Positions 21,501 through 49,373 of a stretch of DNA of 64,000 nucleotides are shown here, piece after piece; position 1 is the first letter of the stretch, and every line of letters starts with the position of its first letter. A program made the position numbers and the translations under genes. The DNA lies in IMG/VR virus record IMGVR_UViG_3300032331_002448, positions 20,150 through 84,149 of that record, one strand, 5' to 3'. Source of the stretch: a virus. Under the pieces are notes generated by a model. The model was not told where the DNA came from, did no database searches, and saw nothing but the letters and a program-made list of their open reading frames with translations.

Positions 21501-21860
21501 AGCTGTTTTTCCTGCAATATCAACTGCACGACGGAACCTACCCTGCTCTACAGCATGGTCAGCCTGCTCACTTTCATAATGTTGGCTGGTTAACGACTGA
21601 TCATGGGTGCCAGCAACCTTAGGGATGCGATTATCTGGTGTAACAGGCGCTTGAATTAAAGAATCAGCATTTGGATGAGCAACAGCATCAGGTTGATCAT
21701 AAGAAATGCGAGAAATATCCCTAACGCCCCCTTTACGACCTAAATTGCGGGTGAAATTATGTACTTCAGGTGCAAGTGCAGCCCTTTCGTGAACACTACG
21801 AGGGTATTCATTGCCAGTAAGCCTTGCCCACAGGTCAAAATCTTGCGGAGAGACAGGCAT
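18588..21860 (-). CDS. large low-complexity hypothetical protein (1090 aa), probably virion-internal
   Basis: Long ORF at the head of the late cluster; no recognised domain. Confidence 0.65.
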   Translation of the reverse strand: MPVSPQDFDLWARLTGNEYPRSVHERAALAPEVHNFTRNLGRKGGVRDISRISYDQPDAVAHPNADSLIQAPVTPDNRIPKVAGTHDQSLTSQHYESEQADHAVEQGRFRRAVDIAGKTALVAGGIAGGVALARNPTVQRAAQEAAGAINTHIGDIKTRVSDFLGGMMGNVRTPGTQVVETSGDVTPPTTAQRYSQDVIPSQTRLLQATSGAPPQVDLKDAMGKGFGTGSPTIATSQNFSPQPRGPLDVASTAAGSANLYRPDKEAEYVPDLVNPLHPAFRRATPDVLAARSSGLGIIGGAPASSYSEGRPVSTATRDWIQQTESPAALGYTHTADPFTGEYTVRSNKPWTGEASVADRAQSFLTELQQTRTTQLPTTQNLLPPAQSISDVTAAGPVAMPGFERNVNFDQQTSDIGVPQSTPISNYAPVNRPSIQDRLAPYYKGSLEYGKREPSPSNKYIYQDLQKALNLSATTGDTGIVEDVLKGRALKDLSTTAYAGTSPAGTDVLENVPTSKFLLDISNLRKLPYEVGVTGTEGSIPLSAEQKAIELGEMGIAHPGLNRAGSEIKFLRGQEIEALNKKSAAGSALQAAIEIKRSQLRDPRDIANFDAAPHLHPSIAPYAQELSKWELEHENVQNQLAGKTARTEENLANLGLMRAGSEGTRGFTFLSHPSFSTEQNPLGIYGAEPRQAYKSLYTPELYQTAAETPTNIGFKGLGRGEISPEQVMVTASGKGYRAGTEEGVNPASIADPTIAAEQPWLKTPEGLTYVQRALVSSAEFAPRKERKAALSLLERTHELNEQAKALKAKGDLEGASNLLMQSVRLKNQATERQNKPGRRGTSEQGANIAVQMQLERDIRAGLAGDVNLPKTEKTDWSQVASSSLYPSRDPLAAIRPAGSTESFITAAEQTPKLSARQLQQQSAKLARNKQTEKIAQEALLEQARQKQTARQQMIAGESGRYAGMSTGPEMTRRSISGHETPHTPMSEPYNPHLGTRVTRFAEDVLGQTLGPGITPPSRPSDLERYRAQAVSTSRSAGQLTIPGTSKAASTPTEADTLRQQLSDYMARRAGQSSGQFRYVEPQEQLSLRFNR

Positions 21861-22108
21861 CTTTATAGTTTTTTTCTTGATATAAACGATTTTAATGCTT
21901 CTACATGCGCCAGGAGGTAAATAATCACCCCTAATCGGCCATAGAAATGGCCAATTTGGGGTAAAAATTCCAACAGGTATCAGAGTTACTATACGCGCGG
22001 CGGGCCGTGCGAGGAAAAAAAGAAAGGAGGGAGCTGTTCCGTGCGGAGGTGAATGAGTGAAGGGTGATGGCCTTGTAGGGGATAGGCTCCCTTCGATTAG
22101 AGGTTATT

Positions 22109-22345
22109 GTGACTGAGACCAATTTGCTGGCCAAGAAAGCTCTTGCGAAGGCAAAAGAGATGGGCTGGGAAGCCCGCTGCCAGTATGACCAGTCTGACGT
22201 GTTGGATTGGTCTACGGTGGTGGCTTGGGAGCCAGGTGCATCCCGAGCCCGCTACATAACGTTTATTGAAGGAACCGAAGCCCGCAAGGGCTGGGTTCCG
22301 TTGAAGGATATTGAGCAAAGGTTGAAGCGTACTGATTGTTACTGA
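22109..22345 (+). CDS. hypothetical early protein
   Basis: GAGG RBS plus GTG; stop lies inside the next RNA element. Confidence 0.6.
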   Translation: MTETNLLAKKALAKAKEMGWEARCQYDQSDVLDWSTVVAWEPGASRARYITFIEGTEARKGWVPLKDIEQRLKRTDCY

Positions 22346-22413
22346 GTGAAAGGCGTGAGCTGGGGGATCGAATCCCCCCACTTGGTGTTGCCTTTAGCGG
22401 AGATAGGCACCGC
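22340..22413 (+). ncRNA. tRNA-like junction plus pseudoknot A (copy 1)
   Basis: TACTGAG/CTTGGTG closing stem, GGGG-ATCGAAT-CCCC T-loop, TGCCT..GCGG-AGAT-AGGCA-CCGC. Confidence 0.7.
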
Positions 22414-22428
22414 GCAACGGAGAACACC

Positions 22429-22584
22429 GTGCAAGAAGGTACCGAAAGCTGGAAGATGGTTGTTGCACGCGCAGCAACTGCCGCCGTGCTGACGTATGTG
22501 ACGCGGGAAGCTGTGAAAGCAGCGGCCCCGCATGTAAAGCAGTTCCTTGTTTCAAAGTTTATGAAGCAAGAAGAAGCTGCATGA
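22429..22584 (+). CDS. small hypothetical protein (51 aa)
   Basis: GGAG RBS plus GTG 22429, in frame with the track ORF. Confidence 0.6.
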   Translation: MQEGTESWKMVVARAATAAVLTYVTREAVKAAAPHVKQFLVSKFMKQEEAA

Positions 22585-22585
22585 T

Positions 22586-22646
22586 GGCGAAACCAGTGGG
22601 CGCAAGCCCCTGGTCGGGTAGCTTGAGATGCTGCCCCTGACGAGCC
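22586..22646 (+). ncRNA. type II hammerhead ribozyme 1
   Basis: GGC-GAAA-stem III-GTC(22613-15)-stem I GGGTAGC/GCTGCCC-CTGACGA-GCC; full conserved core. Confidence 0.88.
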
Positions 22647-23017
22647 TCTCTTTATAGCTTAAATATACCTTTATATTTAACGAATCGCTATATATTATTA
22701 ACTAAATAGAGATTAATGCCCTTAAATAATACTATCACCCCCTTAAAACCCAGTCGTACCAACCCCTCTCACGTTTGGAACGCCAGGTAGGAAGTAACTG
22801 CGCAACGTGCAGAACGTGCGCTGCGTACCGCCTGTGGAGAGAGTATCTTGATGCTTTTGACACTTGATGCAGATTACTGCATTTAATCAGGAATTTTGCT
22901 TGGTAGTTAATTACCAGATGGTTGCCTCCAGGGAATTAACCCTAGATGCAGCCTTTAGGTTGCGATTAACAGCCTGAGCTTGTTGTCTGCATTGCAGGTA
23001 ACTGAGTAAAGGTTTTT

Positions 23018-23041
23018 TGCTCCAGGGAAGATAAGCACCCC
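23018..23041 (+). ncRNA. pseudoknot A (degenerate copy)
   Basis: TGCT-CCA-GGGA-AGAT-AAGCA-CCCC. Confidence 0.55.
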
Positions 23042-23057
23042 ACCGTTAGTTAAGACC

Positions 23058-23234
23058 ATGAAAGCTTTTGCTGTTGGTTTGATGATTGCTGCAGGTTTCA
23101 CAGCTGTAGCTACTGCACCGATCATGATGCGTAGCACCTATGAAGCTACTGCTGCCAGGTGCATTGCAAGAGGACTGCCTGTTACGGAAGCAACAGGTTA
23201 TCTCAAGCTTTGTAACGCCACATTGAACAACTGA
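23058..23234 (+). CDS. small exported/membrane protein (58 aa)
   Basis: Manually translated MKAFAVGLMIAAGFTAVATAP...; signal-like N-terminus, two Cys. Confidence 0.6.
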   Translation: MKAFAVGLMIAAGFTAVATAPIMMRSTYEATAARCIARGLPVTEATGYLKLCNATLNN

Positions 23235-23304
23235 GTCCGTCAAAGCGGCGTGCCTGGGTGCAAAACCCAGGCCAGTTATTGCCTCCAGAGGAGATGGGCA
23301 CCTC
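23229..23304 (+). ncRNA. tRNA-like junction plus pseudoknot A (copy 2)
   Basis: AACTG/CAGTT, CCG/CGG, GCCTGGG-TGCAAAA-CCCAGGC; TGCCT/GGGCA and GAGG/CCTC. Confidence 0.8.
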
Positions 23305-23321
23305 ACCAGCAGGAGAACACT

Positions 23322-23486
23322 GTGCTTGACACAGTAACAGTCGATCAGGACGAATATTACGAGCTTCTGCCTTGCGGTGGAGTTGTCGTAATACTGTACC
23401 GAGAATCGGCGCAAAACTCTGGCTATACGGTCGAAGAGTGTGATTTTGCACTCTACGGACCTGTAGAAAGAGAGGCTGAGCCGTAA
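23322..23486 (+). CDS. small acidic hypothetical protein (54 aa)
   Basis: AGGAG RBS plus GTG 23322. Confidence 0.6.
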   Translation: MLDTVTVDQDEYYELLPCGGVVVILYRESAQNSGYTVEECDFALYGPVEREAEP

Positions 23487-23548
23487 AGACGGCCTAGGGA
23501 GGTTTGATGCCTCCCACAGCTATTGCCTACAGCGGAGATAGGCACCGC
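23474..23548 (+). ncRNA. tRNA-like junction plus pseudoknot A (copy 3)
   Basis: GGCTG/CAGCT, CCGT/ACGG, GGGAGG-TTTGATG-CCTCCC; TGCCT/AGGCA and GCGG/CCGC. Confidence 0.8.
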
Positions 23549-23565
23549 ACACCAGGAGCACCCTG

Positions 23566-23817
23566 ATGACCACCTTTGAGTCTGTGAGCGAGCAACTGCA
23601 CCCGCAGTCCGCCTCGGTGTTTTATGCCACTGAGGAAGCAATGAAGAACATTGTTGCTAGCGATGAAATTGCTACGCGGAACAAGGTGATTGCTGTTGTT
23701 GCTGTTGCTGCAGGTGTTGCTGCAGGTGTTGCATACTTTGCAGCACGTTCAAGATTGAAGACCCGAGTCGCTGATCTAATGAAGAAGACAGTAACTACAA
23801 CTGCTGAGTCCGTTTAA
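23566..23817 (+). CDS. small single-TM hypothetical protein
   Basis: AGGAG RBS; VIAVVAVAAGVAAGVAYFAA. Confidence 0.65.
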   Translation: MTTFESVSEQLHPQSASVFYATEEAMKNIVASDEIATRNKVIAVVAVAAGVAAGVAYFAARSRLKTRVADLMKKTVTTTAESV

Positions 23818-23877
23818 GCGGCCAGGGAGGTGCAATGCCTCCCGTCAGCTATTGCCTACAGCGGAGATGGGCACCGC
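23803..23877 (+). ncRNA. tRNA-like junction plus pseudoknot A (copy 4)
   Basis: GCTGA/TCAGC, CCG/CGG, GGGAGG-TGCAATG-CCTCCC; TGCCT/GGGCA and GCGG/CCGC. Confidence 0.8.
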
Positions 23878-23894
23878 ACACACCTTGAGGTTTT

Positions 23895-24128
23895 ATGACC
23901 AGCAACACGTTGGTTTATGCTGTCCTTGGCCGTATTTATAGTGAATGCGGTTCAGATGAGACTTGGATTCATTCTGTTCACGCAAGTGAAGAAAGTGCGT
24001 ACGAGCAACGAGCTACTTTAATTAAAGAGTCTTTGCAGAATAAACTTGCTGAAATTGAAGCGGATAACAAAGTTTTTATTGATATGAGGAAGTATTGGAG
24101 TGTTGCAAGCTATGAACTAATCCGTTAA
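23895..24128 (+). CDS. small hypothetical protein
   Basis: GAGG RBS; ORF track. Confidence 0.65.
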   Translation: MTSNTLVYAVLGRIYSECGSDETWIHSVHASEESAYEQRATLIKESLQNKLAEIEADNKVFIDMRKYWSVASYELIR

Positions 24129-24190
24129 AGCGGGTGGCCAGGTGCAAACCCTGGCCTAGTTATTGCCCTGTTCGCGCCTTGGGCAAGCGC
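24115..24190 (+). ncRNA. tRNA-like junction plus variant pseudoknot (copy 5)
   Basis: AACTA/TAGTT, CCG/CGG, GGCCAGG-TGCAAAC-CCTGGCC; TTGCCC/GGGCAA and GCGC/GCGC. Confidence 0.75.
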
Positions 24191-24204
24191 ACCGCCTTGT
24201 AGCC

Positions 24205-24453
24205 GTGACTGAAGTTTCGGTGTACAACGTCATCCAGGATCTTCGTATCCTGGCACGAAGAGACTGGCCTGCTGGTCCTGTGGATCAGCAGTTAGAGTCC
24301 TTTAGGCTGCAGTTCTTCACTGCGTTTGAGCAGTGGATGGACGGCGCCACGGTAGATCTTGTTCCATTTATGGAGCACGCTACCAGAGTGGTCTCGGTCA
24401 ATCGAGACCTTGTGCGCTGGCTTAAGCGTAAGCTTGAGCAAGACGCTGTGTAG
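24205..24453 (+). CDS. small hypothetical protein
   Basis: GTG 24205 in frame with the track ORF; TAG stop is part of hammerhead stem II. Confidence 0.6.
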   Translation: MTEVSVYNVIQDLRILARRDWPAGPVDQQLESFRLQFFTAFEQWMDGATVDLVPFMEHATRVVSVNRDLVRWLKRKLEQDAV

Positions 24454-24522
24454 GCGAAACTGGGAGCTGTGCTTGCATGGTTCCCGGTCTGCCAGGTTGA
24501 CGCCCTGGCACTGATGAGCCTG
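24451..24522 (+). ncRNA. type II hammerhead ribozyme 2
   Basis: TAGGC-GAAA-12-bp stem III-GTC(24487-89)-stem I TGCCAGG/CCTGGCA-CTGATGA-GCCTG. Confidence 0.92.
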
Positions 24523-24576
24523 TCAGTAAACCTTGGTTACTTGTTGTTGCAATGAGTAACCGAGTAAAGGATATTA

Positions 24577-24600
24577 GCCTCCTAGGGAGATAGGCACCCT
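24577..24600 (+). ncRNA. pseudoknot A copy
   Basis: GCCT-CCT-AGGG-AGAT-AGGC-A-CCCT. Confidence 0.7.
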
Positions 24601-24629
24601 ACCAAGTTATCTAGAGGATAACGAAATCA

Positions 24630-24851
24630 ATGAGCAAAAGAAGGTATTACTTTTCTTTGCTCACTATGAGCACCGCAGCTGCCATTGTTTATGTTGGTGG
24701 CATTCGCTTGCAAGAACAGAGTAATGCTGCTGCAGTTAAACACTGTACTGGTATTTACAAAGTTGTATCAAGCTCTACAGCGTTTGGTCCTGTCAAACGT
24801 TGTGTTTCTATTGTTCAATCTGACGGTCCTTCACTTCCTTTGCAACCATGA
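24630..24851 (+). CDS. small membrane-anchored hypothetical protein
   Basis: GAGGA RBS; hydrophobic N-terminus, two Cys. Confidence 0.6.
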   Translation: MSKRRYYFSLLTMSTAAAIVYVGGIRLQEQSNAAAVKHCTGIYKVVSSSTAFGPVKRCVSIVQSDGPSLPLQP

Positions 24852-25081
24852 ACAGAATTAACGTCTCTTCTTCGCTTGATTTGCTGCCAGAAACTGTTGC
24901 TTACCTGATGGTCATTGCAGCTGAGAATAACGTGACGCTTGATGAAATGCTTGCTCAAATTCTAGATGAGAGCGTTGTTGCCAGTATGGCAATTGACAAA
25001 CACATCGCTGAGCAGGAAGCAGCTAAAGATTCTTACGAGATGAACGTAGAGAAGCAGGTTGAAGAGCAACTCTCTTCATAA
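24848..25081 (+). CDS. small hypothetical protein (possible ribbon-helix-helix)
   Basis: LDLLPETVAYLMVIAAENNVTLDEMLAQIL pattern. Confidence 0.5.
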   Translation: MNRINVSSSLDLLPETVAYLMVIAAENNVTLDEMLAQILDESVVASMAIDKHIAEQEAAKDSYEMNVEKQVEEQLSS

Positions 25082-25372
25082 TTTCTTTACATTCCCTTAT
25101 GGCCAACAGCAGCCTGGCCTTGGATGCTGCAATTCACTTGCTTTACAGTCATGCAACTGTTCCAAGATCTTACCCGCCAGGAAGAAACCGAGTTTCGCAA
25201 CTGGGCCAGGGAGAACTACCTTCCTTTTGCTGACATCAGGGGCATTTGGCATCCTGTTGTCCAAGATGAATGCCGTCGCATCAACGAACAAGCACAAGTT
25301 TTTGGATGATAAATCCGCAGTTGCTTATCTTGTTGATAGGTAATTGTGTGCAGGATTAAGTGACATCTTGAT

Positions 25373-34359: not shown

Positions 34360-34728
34360 ATGAACACTTACCTCTTTCGTGTTCAGCTTGGTGATGGCAA
34401 GCCAGTAGAAGCTCCTATCAAAGCGAAAGATGTAGTGACGGCAGTTACAGCAGGGTATCGCCAGTACCCTGCTGCCAGGAACCTGCATCTTATTTCTGTT
34501 ATTCATCCTGATCCGCCCGAACCAGTTGTGTACCCTGATCTAATCGAGGAATCTCACCCTTTGTTTGGTGATTCAGTTATCAGTGTAAAGAACAGGTCTC
34601 CTGATACTAAAGAGAAAATTAAGGAGGCTATTGCTCTTCGATGGAAAGGTTTGAATTACAGACAGATCGGAAAAGAACTTAATGTTCCTGCCCGTCGTGT
34701 TTCTTCTTGGCTCAATCAGTATTGTTAA
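34360..34728 (+). CDS. HTH domain protein
   Basis: AIALRWKGLNYRQIGKELNVPARRVSSWL. Confidence 0.7.
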   Translation: MNTYLFRVQLGDGKPVEAPIKAKDVVTAVTAGYRQYPAARNLHLISVIHPDPPEPVVYPDLIEESHPLFGDSVISVKNRSPDTKEKIKEAIALRWKGLNYRQIGKELNVPARRVSSWLNQYC

Positions 34729-34732
34729 TCCT

Positions 34733-35062
34733 ATGGCTGTTAAATGTCCTGAGTGTCAACAACTGAATAACCGGACTCTAGAAGTTAGAGTTTTGAATGA
34801 CGACACTGCAGTCAGGCGGCGTAAGCTCTGCAAGGACTGTGGCGCCAGGTGGACAACCTACGAACGTTATGAAATTCCTTACAACTTTAATGTTTGTGGT
34901 TCTAAGAATCACAACTCAGTTCTCTTAGAAAAAAACATAAGAGATATACGTAAGGAGTTTCATGAAGGAACAAGTTGTTTAGAACTTTCTCGTAAGTACG
35001 GTGTTAGTCAGTCAACAATAAGTCGGATTATCCGGCGTGTTACCTGGGGCCATGTTGCATGA
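34733..35062 (+). CDS. NrdR-like zinc ribbon fused to HTH
   Basis: CPEC...VRRRKLCKDCGARWTTYER plus LSRKYGVSQSTISRI. Confidence 0.75.
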   Translation: MAVKCPECQQLNNRTLEVRVLNDDTAVRRRKLCKDCGARWTTYERYEIPYNFNVCGSKNHNSVLLEKNIRDIRKEFHEGTSCLELSRKYGVSQSTISRIIRRVTWGHVA

Positions 35063-43135: not shown

Positions 43136-43627
43136 ATGGAAGCAAAAGAACTTGAAGACGCTCCAGGGTATTGTATTTATCCTGACGGAAAACTTTGGTC
43201 TAAAAAAACAAATAAATTTTTAAAAGATCAAAGAGGCGGTTACAAAGGCGAATACAGAAAATTTTCATTATGGGTAAACGGTAAATACATTAATAAGTAT
43301 GTTCACGTTTTAGTTATGAATTATTTTGGCCCAATAAAACCAAGCATTAATCATGAAATTAATCATATTGACAGTAATAAGTTTAACAATACATTAAACA
43401 ATTTGGAGTGGGTAACTTCTTCCGAAAATACAAAACACGGAGTAAAAAACGGTTTATTTAGCCGCGTTCAATTATCTATTGAAGAAGTAAAAGAAATTAA
43501 AAACATGTTTAAGAATACTCCAGATTATTATGGAAAAGTTGCAAGCATTTCCAAAATGTACGGAGTTTCTTATCACGTTATTTCACAAATTAAACATAAT
43601 AAAAACTGGAGTTATGTCGAAATTTGA
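43136..43627 (+). CDS. HNH homing endonuclease with C-terminal HTH
   Basis: YVHVLV...INHIDSNKFNNTLNNLEWVTSSEN; very AT-rich. Confidence 0.9.
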   Translation: MEAKELEDAPGYCIYPDGKLWSKKTNKFLKDQRGGYKGEYRKFSLWVNGKYINKYVHVLVMNYFGPIKPSINHEINHIDSNKFNNTLNNLEWVTSSENTKHGVKNGLFSRVQLSIEEVKEIKNMFKNTPDYYGKVASISKMYGVSYHVISQIKHNKNWSYVEI

Positions 43628-49308: not shown

Positions 49309-49373
49309 GGCGCCTAGACTGGAAGTCGTTGAGCCCATAGCTCAGAAGATCCGTTCGATTCGGATAGGCGCCC
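49309..49373 (+). tRNA. minimal tRNA-like element, anticodon CAT
   Basis: GGCGCCT/AGGCGCC acceptor, GAC/GTC D-arm, TTGAG-CCCATAG-CTCAG, ATCCG-TTCGATT-CGGAT; no encoded CCA. Confidence 0.65.

What the first reader, a model, noticed from the sequence alone, without database searches (positions are those of the whole stretch)
22340..24630. Modular RNA-punctuated gene array: every small early gene is bracketed by a cutter-like element and a 5' pseudoknot
Seen: between consecutive 51-83 aa ORFs the same grammar repeats. The upstream stop codon lies in or beside a structured element, either a tRNA-like junction (22340, 23229, 23474, 23803, 24115) or a hammerhead (22586, 24451). A compact pseudoknot follows (22389, 23018, 23280, 23524, 23853, 24163, 24577), then a start codon about 15-30 nt later, usually with an RBS. 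The spacers diverge in sequence but keep their pairing. Established: hammerheads self-cleave, tRNA-like folds are RNase P/RNase Z substrates, and cyanobacteria have 5'-end-dependent RNases (RNase J, RNase E). Inference: the phage cuts a polycistronic early transcript into monocistronic mRNAs, each capped by a nuclease-blocking pseudoknot, with ribozymes and tRNA mimics as interchangeable cutters. The spacers could also act as recombination points for cassette shuffling. I do not recognise this combination as a described system.
Basis: partly seen in the sequence, partly recalled or inferred. Interest (0 to 1): 0.92.

Follow-up and report, generated by a model that had tools for sequence, protein, structure and literature searches.

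The report
tRNA-like and hammerhead spacers between phage genes
Between the small early genes of this lake phage sit real, conserved RNA folds (a miniature tRNA look-alike or a hammerhead ribozyme, then a pseudoknot or hairpin) that most likely cut one long message into separate, protected messages, and the tRNA look-alike is a widespread phage RNA motif that I could not find described.

Summary
Seven consecutive gene junctions (22345-24630) each carry a structured element on the upstream stop codon, then a pseudoknot, then a start codon. Four junction elements are one family: a three-way junction (3WJ) with an 11-12 bp closing-stem/hairpin stack capped by a T-loop-like loop. A model built from it finds 141 copies in 87 phage sources with strong covariation (96% paired, 13/16 pairs with double changes). 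No convincing copy appeared in 80 bacterial loci. One full copy appeared in 151 cyanobacterial genomes. In 111 of 133 contexts the upstream ORF's stop codon lies inside the 3WJ. A hairpin (71) or the pseudoknot (36) follows after a conserved AUU. Both hammerheads have complete type II cores but score below Rfam's threshold. An independent contig (L093) alternates 3WJ+hairpin and hammerheads in the same slot before the same leader. Homologues of one window gene are followed by a hammerhead, a 3WJ or plain hairpins. Cleavage, the responsible enzyme and nuclease blocking are untested, because no RNA data could be laid. The 3WJ and pseudoknot match no Rfam family, and my literature searches found no description. 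First-stage notes on this same genome had flagged these elements; none concerned other DNA.

The parts
22070..22092 (+). Pseudoknot copy 0 (GCCU/AGGC and AGGG/CCCU), before the first small ORF (22109-22345).
   Evidence: Sequence; pattern hit at 22079; row in alignment A4.
22341..22386 (+). tRNA-like junction, subtype B. Closing stem 8-9 bp holding the TGA at 22343-22345, a 3-bp hairpin, and a T-arm-like hairpin GGGGG-AUCGAAU-CCCCC.
   Evidence: MFE folds, z -3.49. Not hit by R1. Same subtype as L253:598-651.
22389..22413 (+). Pseudoknot copy 1, followed by an SD/start hairpin and GTG at 22430.
22586..22646 (+). Type II hammerhead 1. Stem II is GGC/GCC, beginning 1 nt after the TGA at 22582-22584. 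Predicted cleavage is after C22615. Loop I GAGA can pair with UCUC in the 3' tail.
   Evidence: Core and helices found by script; MFE fold z -2.2. No Rfam hit at E<=10.
22650..23017 (+). AT-rich stretch without an ORF. It holds one promoter-like site (22670-22698) and ends in a truncated junction remnant, CTGAGTAAAGG, at 23002-23012.
23018..23041 (+). Pseudoknot copy 2 (UGCU/AGCA and GGG/CCC), before ORF 23058-23234.
23226..23280 (+). tRNA-like 3WJ. The closing stem ACUG/CAGU holds the TGA of ORF 23058-23234.
   Evidence: R1 57.3 bits.
23280..23304 (+). Pseudoknot copy 3 (S2 is GAGG/CCUC), before the probable GTG start at 23322 (ORF to 23486).
23471..23524 (+). tRNA-like 3WJ with loop UUUGAUG. 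The stop TAA lies in the hairpin-1 loop.
   Evidence: R1 33.1 bits, and the copy was not in the seed; MFE gives the 3WJ, z -3.15.
23524..23548 (+). Pseudoknot copy 4, before ORF 23566-23817.
23799..23853 (+). tRNA-like 3WJ. The stop TAA lies in the hairpin-1 loop.
   Evidence: R1 50.9 bits.
23853..23877 (+). Pseudoknot copy 5, before ORF 23895-24128.
24112..24164 (+). tRNA-like 3WJ. The closing stem ACUA/UAGU covaries relative to the other window copies, and the stop TAA lies in the hairpin-1 loop. This copy is 85-90% identical to copies in Synechococcus phages S-EIVl and S-SBP1.
   Evidence: R1 76.4 bits; blastn.
24164..24190 (+). Divergent pseudoknot copy 6 (UGCCC/GGGCA and GCGC/GCGC; the middle loop is CUU instead of AGAU), before the probable GTG start at 24205 (ORF to 24453).
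   Evidence: Sequence. It was not in alignment A4.
24448..24525 (+). Type II hammerhead 2. Stem II GUAGGC/GCCUGU holds the TAG stop at 24451-24453. Predicted cleavage is after C24489. Loop I UGAC can pair with GUCA in the 3' tail.
   Evidence: Rfam Hammerhead_II 30.3 bits against a gathering score of 37, E 0.0021; script; MFE z -3.4.
24577..24600 (+). Pseudoknot copy 7 (GCCU/AGGC and AGGG/CCCU), preceded by the remnant CGAGTAAAGG at 24561-24570, and lying before ORF 24630-24851.

Best explanation
The spacers are punctuation marks of a polycistronic early transcript.

Each upstream ORF ends inside a compact fold. That fold is either a tRNA-like junction or a type II hammerhead whose open helix starts at the stop codon. 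The junction is an acceptor-like stem stacked on a T-arm-like hairpin (11-12 bp), with a small docked hairpin beside it.

The RNA is then cut just 3' of that fold. The hammerhead cuts itself. The tRNA-like fold is inferred to be cut by a host tRNA 3'-end nuclease, in the conserved A-U-U that follows the stack. RNase Z is the best fit, and RNase E is the alternative.

The upstream message keeps a structured 3' end, which shields it from 3' exonucleases. The downstream message starts with a hairpin or pseudoknot 2-3 nt from its new 5' end, which shields it from 5'-end-dependent decay. It then carries a short leader to its start codon.

Because the stop codon is inside the closing helix, a terminating ribosome must melt the fold. 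Cutting may therefore be tied to translation.

Shown: the structures, their selection, their fixed position on stop codons, and their exchangeability with hammerheads. Inferred: the cut, its place, the enzyme, and the protective roles.
For: - Family and covariation: 141 R1 hits in 87 phage sources. 96.0% of cells are paired, against 73.7% in shuffles and 37-51% in slid controls. 13 of 16 pairs show double changes.
- tRNA ruler: the 4-bp closing stem is 97.6% paired, a fifth pair forms in 79 of 103 rows, and hairpin 2 adds 7 bp. Subtype B has 7 + 5 bp. Hits outside my search pattern carry loops UUCAA, UUCGA, UUUGA and UUUAA.
- Position: the upstream ORF's stop lies in the junction in 111 of 133 contexts.
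- What follows: after a conserved AUU comes a hairpin (71), a pseudoknot (36) or something else (23).
- Same slot as a ribozyme: L093 runs ORF / 3WJ+hairpin / ORF / 3WJ+hairpin / ORF / hammerhead / ORF / hammerhead / ORF, each spacer before the same or a closely similar leader.
- Orthologous junction: homologues of window ORF 24205-24453 are followed by hammerhead 2 (window), a 3WJ variant (L252-L255, 21-32 bits) or plain hairpins (S-EIVl).
- Both designs give the same products on paper: a structured 3' end, then a 5'-terminal hairpin plus leader.
- No phage RNase, RNA ligase or RNA polymerase was found among 30 window ORFs scanned. Host enzymes would therefore be needed.
- In Synechocystis, RNase E-dependent sites map 1 nt beyond tRNA 3' ends (PMC10939160, passages).
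- Hammerhead arrays in prophages were proposed to process long transcripts and cleave in vitro (PMC3088659, passages).
Against: - No end-mapping data exist here. No RNA run was listed, so no cut is shown.
- The junction lacks D and anticodon arms. ARAGORN and Rfam's tRNA model do not see it. Whether RNase Z or RNase P accepts it is unknown.
- Hairpin 1 (UCCGU-NNAA-GCGG) is far more conserved than a mere nuclease handle needs to be.
- Exchangeability rests on two arrays (the window and L093) and one gene family. L252, L253 and L254 are near-identical to each other.
- Rfam does not score hammerhead 1 at all. Hammerhead 2 and the L093 copy fall below the gathering score.
- Plain 5' protection does not explain the pseudoknot's invariant AGAU loop. 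The pseudoknot's topology is also odd, because its two 3' strands abut.
- Alignment A2 was fitted to the model, and its seeds were picked with a pattern that fixed hairpin 1 and part of the loop.
Confidence: 0.5

Rival explanations
1. Translational control without cutting. The pseudoknot, together with the SD/start-codon hairpin, is an operator bound by a phage or host protein. That protein would switch all small early genes off or on together, as T4 RegA or gene 32 protein act on their targets. The junction on the stop codon would merely insulate neighbouring cistrons.
For: The pseudoknot has sequence-invariant loops (AGAU, and a GGCAC core) across diverse contigs, more than a passive cap needs. 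A hairpin pairing the start codon follows 26 of 56 pseudoknot motifs, against 144 of 980 shuffled leaders. 34 of the 56 have an SD-like word. The pseudoknot lies 15-29 nt from the start codons.
Against: This does not explain why self-cleaving ribozymes take the junction's slot. Most relatives use a plain hairpin and an SD-less CA-rich leader instead (71 of 133). No candidate RNA-binding regulator was identified. The reading can also coexist with the processing model.
Confidence: 0.17
2. The three-way junction, with its AUU linker and the following hairpin or pseudoknot, is itself an undescribed self-cleaving ribozyme class. It would cut without any host enzyme.
For: It sits in the same slot as hammerheads. 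From recall, not read here: co-location with hammerheads was the criterion that led to twister-sister, pistol and hatchet (the paper was not held). It has highly conserved nucleotides in hairpin 1, in the top of hairpin 2 and in the linker. It matches no Rfam family at E<=10.
Against: The junction itself has almost no unpaired conserved nucleotides to build an active site. The downstream partner is freely exchanged among hairpin, pseudoknot and a long motif. The T-loop plus 12-bp ruler is explained more simply as protein or RNase recognition.
Confidence: 0.1
3. The junctions are leaky transcription terminators or 3'-end-forming structures that grade expression along the array. They are not cleavage sites.
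For: The consensus scan calls two of the five junction hairpins terminator-like, because of the U-rich tail CAGUUAUUG (8 found, 3.7 expected). One weak R1 hit in a cyanobacterial genome (L244) is an ordinary GC hairpin with the same loop followed by CUUCUU.
Against: The U run is short and is separated from hairpin 2 by the closing-stem strand. A three-way junction with a conserved side hairpin is not terminator anatomy. Hammerheads in the same slot do not terminate. The downstream genes have no promoters of their own in the spacers.
Confidence: 0.08
4. The primary role is at the DNA level. The repeated spacers would be recombination points that shuffle small gene cassettes, like the promoter/stem-loop cassettes of T4-type phages or, more distantly, integron attC sites.
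For: Neighbours mix across the junction. 12 of 18 multi-member downstream ORF clusters occur with more than one upstream cluster, and 14 of 14 upstream clusters occur with more than one downstream cluster. Near-identical 50-nt copies recur within one contig (for example L007). The element supplies stop codons in two frames. Truncated remnants lie at 23002 and 24561.
Against: Conserved U-G pairs work only on the sense strand as RNA. Strong covariation and T-loop conservation are not needed for homologous recombination. No integrase or recombinase is linked. I made no comparison with junctions that lack the element, and the clustering is crude. Shuffling is more likely a by-product.
Confidence: 0.07
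5. The two co-oriented hammerheads excise the 1.87-kb segment between them (22616-24489), and a host ligase closes it into a circular RNA.
For: Hammerhead products carry the ends that RtcB-type ligases join (established chemistry). An earlier first-stage note raised the idea (e1-6134516).
Against: No ligase gene was seen in the ORFs scanned. In L093 the two hammerheads bracket a single ordinary ORF. The 2011 study looked for circular or spliced products from such arrays and found none (PMC3088659, passage). The idea leaves the five tRNA-like elements unexplained.
Confidence: 0.03

Closest known systems
Hammerhead ribozyme arrays flanking genes in prophages (Perreault et al. 2011, PMC3088659)
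   Same: Type II hammerheads with a loop I/3'-tail pseudoknot lie between co-directional small phage genes. They were proposed to cut long transcripts into gene-length mRNAs.
   Different: Here the ribozyme is only one of two fillers of the slot. The commoner filler is a tRNA-like junction that cannot be assumed to cut itself. A dedicated 5' hairpin or pseudoknot follows.
RNase III processing sites between phage T7 early genes (recalled, not read here)
   Same: Structured intergenic elements in a host-transcribed early polycistronic mRNA. After cutting, the remaining hairpin stabilises the upstream message.
   Different: T7 sites are long irregular double-stranded hairpins cut within the stem. 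Here the helices are 4-9 bp, arranged as a three-way junction with a T-loop, which is not RNase III anatomy.
tRNA punctuation of mitochondrial transcripts and plant mitochondrial t-elements; mascRNA at the MALAT1 3' end (recalled)
   Same: tRNAs or tRNA-like folds between or after coding regions serve as handles for RNase P and RNase Z, which define mRNA ends.
   Different: Those systems are organellar or nuclear and use full tRNAs or cloverleaf mimics. Here a bacteriophage uses a 45-55 nt mimic that lacks D and anticodon arms and overlaps the stop codon. Processing is not shown.
Promoter-early stem-loop (PeSL) cassettes of T4-type phages (recalled)
   Same: Repeated regulatory spacers bracket small early ORFs in plastic genome regions and are thought to favour modular shuffling.
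   Different: PeSLs are a promoter plus a simple stem-loop. These spacers hold no promoter-like sites and are complex covarying RNA folds.
Synthetic ribozyme insulators such as RiboJ (ribozyme plus hairpin) (recalled)
   Same: A cutter followed by a hairpin gives each cistron a defined, context-free 5' end.
   Different: RiboJ is engineered. This would be a natural counterpart with two kinds of cutter.

Membership tests
Hammerhead ribozyme, type II (Rfam RF02276) | Conserved core: CUGANGA, GAAA, an A-U pair closing stem III, and cleavage-site H (here GUC) | tested here: met
   Both window copies and both L093 copies pass the core-and-helix script. The sequence was read.
Hammerhead ribozyme, type II (Rfam RF02276) | Three helices, with stem II open and stems I and III capped | tested here: met
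   Stems II/III/I are 3/5+/7 bp and 6/13/7 bp. The MFE folds reproduce them, z -2.2 and -3.4.
Hammerhead ribozyme, type II (Rfam RF02276) | Pairing between loop I and the tail 3' of stem II (common in type II; PMC3088659) | tested here: met
   GAGA/UCUC in hammerhead 1 and UGAC/GUCA in hammerhead 2, read. UGG/CCA in L093 aligns to the consensus.
Hammerhead ribozyme, type II (Rfam RF02276) | Score at or above Rfam's gathering threshold (37 bits) | tested here: not met
   Hammerhead 2 scores 30.3 bits. Hammerhead 1 gives no hit at E<=10, even on 131 nt. L093:7408-7474 scores 35.4 bits, and the second L093 copy is not listed.
Hammerhead ribozyme, type II (Rfam RF02276) | Self-cleavage | not testable with these tools
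   Needs in vitro transcription.
tRNA / tRNA-like structure (substrate of RNase P, RNase Z, CCA enzyme) | About 12 bp of coaxial acceptor plus T stem | tested here: met
   Closing stem of 4 bp (97.6% paired), a fifth pair in 79 of 103 rows, and a 7-bp hairpin 2 at 96.8%. Subtype B has 7-9 + 5 bp.
tRNA / tRNA-like structure (substrate of RNase P, RNase Z, CCA enzyme) | 7-nt T-loop with U at position 1, a purine at 4 and A at 5 | tested here: met
   UGCAA and UGCGA were fixed by my search pattern, so they do not count. The hits found only by the model carry UUCAA, UUCGA, UUUGA, UUUAA and AUCGA/AUCAA. The subtype B loops begin with A.
tRNA / tRNA-like structure (substrate of RNase P, RNase Z, CCA enzyme) | Cloverleaf with D and anticodon arms; recognised by tRNA finders | tested here: not met
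   ARAGORN finds only a tRNA-Met call at 49309-49373. There is no Rfam tRNA hit in the region. One weak Tymo_tRNA-like hit appears on L012 (14.4 bits, E 1.7).
tRNA / tRNA-like structure (substrate of RNase P, RNase Z, CCA enzyme) | Cleavage by RNase P or RNase Z | not testable with these tools
   Needs enzyme assays or end mapping.
H-type RNA pseudoknot | Two helices, the second pairing the first hairpin's loop with downstream sequence, both supported by covariation | tested here: met
   On A4 (31 sequences), 96.4% of cells are paired against 86.4% in shuffles and 30-45% in slid controls. 5 of 9 pairs show double changes, in both helices. The rows were chosen by the motif GAGAYRGG.
H-type RNA pseudoknot | Classical loop geometry: short middle loop, with both crossing loops present | tested here: not met
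   The middle loop is 4 nt (AGAU), and the two 3' strands abut with 0-1 nt between them. The helices cannot stack in the classical way (my inference).
RNase III site of the T7 type | About 20 bp or more of mostly double-stranded hairpin | tested here: not met
   The longest helix in the junctions is 7-9 bp.
Intrinsic terminator | GC-rich hairpin directly followed by a U run | tested here: inconclusive
   Two of five junction hairpins pass the loose scan. The tail CAGUUAUUG has 4 U in 9 nt and is part of the closing stem.
PeSL-type promoter cassette | A sigma-70-type promoter in each spacer | tested here: not met
   Three promoter-like sites in 21700-25200 against 3.5 expected. None lies in a junction/pseudoknot spacer, and one lies at 22670-22698 in the AT-rich stretch.

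The most novel reading that the evidence does not exclude
Cyanophage-type viruses carry a widespread, undescribed miniature tRNA mimic that overlaps stop codons. Through it they borrow the host's tRNA-end-processing enzymes to cut early polycistronic messages. This would be a bacterial-virus counterpart of mitochondrial tRNA punctuation. Type II hammerheads would be a self-contained, interchangeable alternative. If so, the long-open question of what phage hammerheads are for gets a direct answer: they do the job of a tRNA punctuation mark. A bolder variant is that the junction module is itself a new self-cleaving ribozyme class.
Probability: 0.4. Interest if true: 0.85.

Novelty: new variant of a known kind. 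Interest (0 to 1): 0.74.

Why it matters
The biological role of the many hammerhead and other self-cleaving ribozymes in bacteria and phages is still called unresolved (review PMC6765202, passages). Here a ribozyme and a non-ribozyme RNA fold fill the same slot, in front of the same leader and after the same gene family. That gives a concrete, testable functional equivalence.

The tRNA-like junction is abundant. It covaries strongly, it is nearly confined to phage DNA in what I searched, and it matches no Rfam family. It is therefore a good candidate for a new RNA family.

If host tRNA nucleases do cut it, this would show phages using tRNA mimicry for mRNA maturation. It would also offer compact natural insulator parts for cyanobacterial synthetic biology.

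Tried and rejected
- Rfam. The gathering search on the window gave 0 hits. The E<=10 search on 21800-25200 gave only hammerhead 2 and chance hits, including rivX, STnc and mir-46. No twister, twister-sister, pistol, hatchet, HDV-like, riboswitch or tRNA model matched the junction or the pseudoknot.
- Riboswitch reading of the pseudoknot. I considered preQ1-I, guanidine-III and SAM-II from recall and dropped them. There is no Rfam match, the element sits before unrelated small ORFs, and a plain hairpin often replaces it.
- Promoter reading (TTGCCT as a -35 box). Rejected, because no -10 box lies at the right spacing.
- Pairing between the pseudoknot's second helix and hairpin 1 of the junction (both contain GCGG). 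Rejected, because the pseudoknot helix varies (GUGG/CCAC, GAGG/CCUC) while hairpin 1 stays fixed.
- Drum motif. I recalled it as ribozyme-associated. The paper says otherwise (PMC5737381, passages).
- Bacterial genomes. 80 of at least 120 pattern matches were listed. R1 found no real copy among them, and the best hit scored 22 bits without hairpin 2. In 151 sampled cyanobacterial genomes there were 9 weak hits (26.5 bits or less), of which one is a full junction.
- RNA evidence. No RNA holder was listed for window:22000-24700. The single look-up was then spent. The published S-SBP1 infection RNA-seq could not be examined. That paper does not mention intergenic elements, promoters or terminators (PMC7885011, term search).
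- Literature. The searches found no description of the junction or the pseudoknot. These searches do not prove absence. Weinberg et al. 2015 is not held. The supplementary tables of the 10,006 IMG/VR candidate RNAs (PMC10690425) are closed and may contain this motif.
- Rows left out:
  - searched 87 sources. I dropped the loci whose pattern match looked like chance (no hairpin 2), and L123.
  - One search kept 88 unique sequences of 150 pattern matches (hairpin 2 of at least 5 bp, not at a contig end).
  - A4 holds 31 pseudoknots chosen by position and by the motif GAGAYRGG. The window copy at 24164 is not in it.
  - One search used 101 of 133 contexts. Its start-codon calls are imperfect, because some fall on the ATG inside the pseudoknot, and one cluster merges unrelated membrane-like N-termini.

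Full report
WHAT THE WINDOW IS. The window is bases 20150-84149 of a single 84,149-base virus record. Structural and packaging genes run on the minus strand up to 21860: a terminase large-subunit C-terminal domain and a 1090-aa protein. Small ORFs start on the plus strand at 22109. They are followed by SSB, an endolysin, thymidylate synthase, family A DNA polymerase, dCMP deaminase, an exonuclease and a D5-type primase. The polymerase is about 42% identical to that of Synechococcus phage S-EIVl and of several podoviruses. Among the 30 ORFs scanned I saw no RNA polymerase, RNase or RNA ligase.

THE OBSERVATION.
- Five begin with a junction element on the stop codon, at 22341, 23226, 23471, 23799 and 24112.
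- Two begin with a hammerhead, at 22586 and 24448.
- All seven are followed by a pseudoknot, at 22389, 23018, 23280, 23524, 23853, 24164 and 24577.
- An eighth pseudoknot at 22070 precedes the first ORF.

The core word of the pseudoknot is enriched. It gives 11 matches against 5.25 expected, and seven of them lie in this 2.5-kb stretch on the plus strand. Start codons lie 15-29 nt after the pseudoknot. After 24630 the ORFs abut and the grammar stops.

THE JUNCTION IS A REAL, WIDESPREAD RNA FAMILY.

How it was found. A blastn search of the region found one 50-nt piece (24116-24167) at 85-90% identity in Synechococcus phages S-EIVl and S-SBP1 and in a Mediterranean uncultured phage. Each copy lies just after the stop codon of a small early gene. 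Of 150 pattern matches, 88 unique ones also had a hairpin 2 of at least 5 bp.

Model search. The covariance model R1 was built from those 88 sequences.
- In the window it finds exactly four copies. One of them was not in the seed (23471, 33 bits). The next hit scores 11.5 bits.
- It finds none in the first 20 kb of the genome.
- It finds 141 in the 87 sources searched, including divergent copies that my pattern could not have found.

Covariation. On that alignment 96.0% of cells are paired, against 73.7% in shuffles and 37-51% when partners are slid. 13 of 16 pairs have compensatory double changes, and no shuffle of 500 reaches any of the five measures. The alignment is fitted to the model and its seeds were pattern-picked, so the hairpin 1 and loop figures lean towards the structure. 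The closing stem and the lower hairpin 2 were not constrained by the pattern, and they carry most of the covariation.

Conserved U-G pairs in hairpin 1 mean the fold works on the sense strand, as RNA.

ANATOMY OF THE JUNCTION.
- The closing stem has 4 bp (97.6% paired), and a fifth pair forms in 79 of 103 rows.
- One or two purines lie at the junction.
- Hairpin 1 (UCCGU-NNAA-GCGG) is nearly invariant, though it covaries in divergent copies (CAGG/CCUG, CAG/CUG).
- Hairpin 2 has 7 bp, its top three pairs are conserved, and its loop has 7 nt.
- Hairpin 2 is directly continuous with the 3' strand of the closing stem. The two helices can therefore stack to 11-12 bp, capped by the loop. That is the layout of a tRNA acceptor/T-arm minihelix.
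- My pattern fixed the loop to UGCRA. The model-only hits carry UUCAA, UUCGA, UUUGA and UUUAA, so U1, R4 and A5 are kept and some copies read like a true T-loop.

A second subtype has 7-9 bp of closing stem and a 5-bp stem with loop AUCRAAU. It includes window 22341-22386 and L253:598-651, a tiny four-way cloverleaf (z -3.5 and -4.3).

The element is not a tRNA. ARAGORN and Rfam's tRNA model do not see it.

POSITION OF THE JUNCTION.
- In 133 non-redundant contexts, the stop codon of the longest upstream ORF lies in the closing stem or junction in 83. It lies in the hairpin 1 loop in 28. That is 111 of 133 in total.
- The closing pair covaries with the stop codon: UGA with G-C, and UAA or UAG with A-U.
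- After the stack comes a conserved A-U-U.
- Then comes a hairpin starting 2-3 nt later (71), the pseudoknot (36) or something else (23). Three contexts lie at contig ends.
- About 15 of the 'other' class are a longer shared motif. Five more are an imperfect hairpin.

HOST RANGE OF THE JUNCTION. The same pattern in bacterial genomes gave only chance matches among the 80 loci listed. The best R1 score there was 22 bits, with hairpin 2 missing. In 151 sampled cyanobacterial genomes nine had weak hits of 26.5 bits or less. One is a complete junction on the stop codon of a short ORF. That ORF looks to me like a phage-type helix-turn-helix regulator, which I did not test. Two of twelve IMG/VR loci scanned with Rfam carry a glutamine-II riboswitch just upstream, a cyanobacterial and cyanophage marker. 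In what I searched, the element is therefore a phage element, probably a cyanophage one.

THE PSEUDOKNOT. On 31 sequences chosen by position and core word, 96.4% of cells are paired, against 86.4% in shuffles and 30-45% in slid controls. Five of nine pairs show double changes, in both helices. Examples are UGCC/GGCA against UACC/GGUA, and GCGG/CCGC against GUGG/CCAC, GCCG/CGGC, GCAG/CUGC, CAGG/CCUG and GAGG/CCUC.

Its topology is unusual. The middle loop is 4 nt (AGAU, invariant), and the two 3' strands abut. The helices therefore cannot stack in the classical way. Whether both form at once is open.

In 26 of 56 cases a small hairpin follows that pairs the start codon with the SD region, for example ACAGG-AGAAU-CCUGU(G). 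The figure for shuffled leaders is 144 of 980.

THE HAMMERHEADS. Both window copies have CUGANGA, GAAA, the A-U pair and GUC. Stems I and III are capped and stem II is open. Loop I can pair with the 3' tail: GAGA/UCUC and UGAC/GUCA. That pairing is the tertiary contact described for type II hammerheads (PMC3088659, passages).

Rfam is less kind. Hammerhead 2 scores 30.3 bits against a threshold of 37. Hammerhead 1 scores nothing, even on a 131-nt slice.

Stem II starts at the stop codon in hammerhead 1 and contains the stop codon in hammerhead 2. This mirrors the junction's closing stem.

INTERCHANGEABILITY. My core-and-helix script found type II hammerheads in only two places in 1.07 Mb of phage loci: the window and L093. 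L093 is an independent contig with this array:
- ORF, then 3WJ+hairpin;
- ORF, then 3WJ+hairpin;
- ORF, then hammerhead;
- ORF, then hammerhead;
- ORF.

Each spacer is followed by the same or a closely similar leader running into the start codon. One of the two L093 hammerheads scores 35.4 bits in Rfam.

There is also an orthologous test. Homologues of window ORF 24205-24453 (52-57% identity, five full-length loci) are followed by a 3WJ variant in L252-L255 (21-32 bits), by plain hairpins in S-EIVl, and by hammerhead 2 in the window. L252, L253 and L254 are nearly the same sequence, so this amounts to about three independent comparisons.

On paper both designs give the same products: an upstream RNA ending in a stable fold, and a downstream RNA beginning with a hairpin followed by the leader.

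MECHANISM. I commit to processing and stabilisation, at a confidence of 0.5. The known activity of a hammerhead is to cut, and the junction shares its slot.

For the cutter I prefer a host tRNA 3'-end nuclease acting in the AUU linker.
- A 12-bp stack with a T-loop, a single A and then U-rich sequence is what RNase Z reads. The substrate preferences are recalled, not checked here.
- Cyanobacterial RNase E leaves ends 1 nt beyond tRNAs and cuts A/U-rich single strands next to structure (PMC10939160, passages).
- RNase P fits poorly. A cut 5' of the closing stem would strip the stop codon from the upstream message.

The strong conservation of hairpin 1 and of the top of hairpin 2 suggests a docked, compact fold or a specific partner. 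That keeps the self-cleaving-ribozyme reading (0.10) alive. The pseudoknot's invariant loops and the start-codon hairpin keep the translational-operator reading (0.17) alive. The latter can coexist with processing.

The remaining readings are less likely, for the reasons given under the rival explanations: terminators (0.08), DNA-level cassette shuffling as the primary role (0.07) and circular RNA (0.03). Neighbour mixing across the junction is real but crude and has no baseline.

WHAT IS KNOWN. Three things are established:
- hammerhead arrays that flank prophage genes, with the processing idea attached (PMC3088659);
- RNase III punctuation of T7 early RNA (recalled);
- tRNA punctuation in mitochondria and t-elements in plant mitochondria (recalled).

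I did not find the tRNA-like junction, its overlap with stop codons, its pairing with a 5' hairpin or pseudoknot, or its exchange with hammerheads. Rfam 15 gave no match at E<=10. Seven literature searches found nothing. The closed supplements of PMC10690425, and a paper that is not held, could hold it.

VERDICT. I class the finding as a new variant of a known kind, carried by what looks like an undescribed and abundant phage RNA family. Interest is 0.74.

Noticed in passing
L012:411-470 (also L013, L018, L026, L047, L055, L061, L072, L075, L089, L091, L099, L101, L115, L121): In about 15 loci the junction is followed by a longer shared motif of about 60 nt, not by a hairpin or pseudoknot. It starts GGCAUUGGCC and ends GACGGUGGGAUAGACCAC, with visible covariation in its outer stem. 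In L012 and L055 the order is glutamine-II riboswitch, an 18-aa ORF, junction, this motif. There is no Rfam hit at E<=5.
   Followed up: partly
L093:6376-6440 and L002:590-640: A tRNA-like T arm with the canonical GGUUCGAGUCC loop lies just upstream of the first small ORF of the early arrays in L093 and in phage S-SBP1. In L093 the flanking strands could form a pseudoknotted acceptor. The MFE fold did not show a clear tRNA shape (z -1.3).
   Followed up: partly
window 23002-23012 and 24561-24570: The short words CTGAGTAAAGG and CGAGTAAAGG precede the pseudoknots that have no junction. They read like the junction with hairpin 1 and hairpin 2 deleted. This suggests decay or deletion between short repeats.
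   Followed up: no
window 22650-23017: An AT-rich 370-nt stretch after hammerhead 1 holds no ORF of 45 aa or more and one promoter-like site (TTTATA-17-TATTAT, 22670-22698). A similar AT-rich stretch follows the junction in L252-L254, before the SSB gene. It may be a second early promoter. The rivX hit there (28 bits against a threshold of 100) is chance.
   Followed up: no
L245:1501-1551 (cyanobacterial genome G111): This is the only complete junction seen in 151 sampled cyanobacterial genomes. It overlaps the TAG of a short ORF that looks like a phage-type helix-turn-helix regulator, so it is probably in a prophage or island.
   Followed up: partly
L012:359-426: The junction gives a weak, sub-threshold hit to Rfam's tymovirus tRNA-like 3' UTR element (14.4 bits, threshold 40, E 1.7). 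It is a curiosity that fits the T-arm likeness, not evidence.
   Followed up: no
window 49309-49373: ARAGORN calls a 65-nt tRNA-Met (anticodon CAT) in a gene-poor stretch.
   Followed up: no
window 34682-35062 and 43136-43627: Two HNH endonuclease genes lie among the replication genes, one of them directly after the DNA polymerase gene.
   Followed up: no
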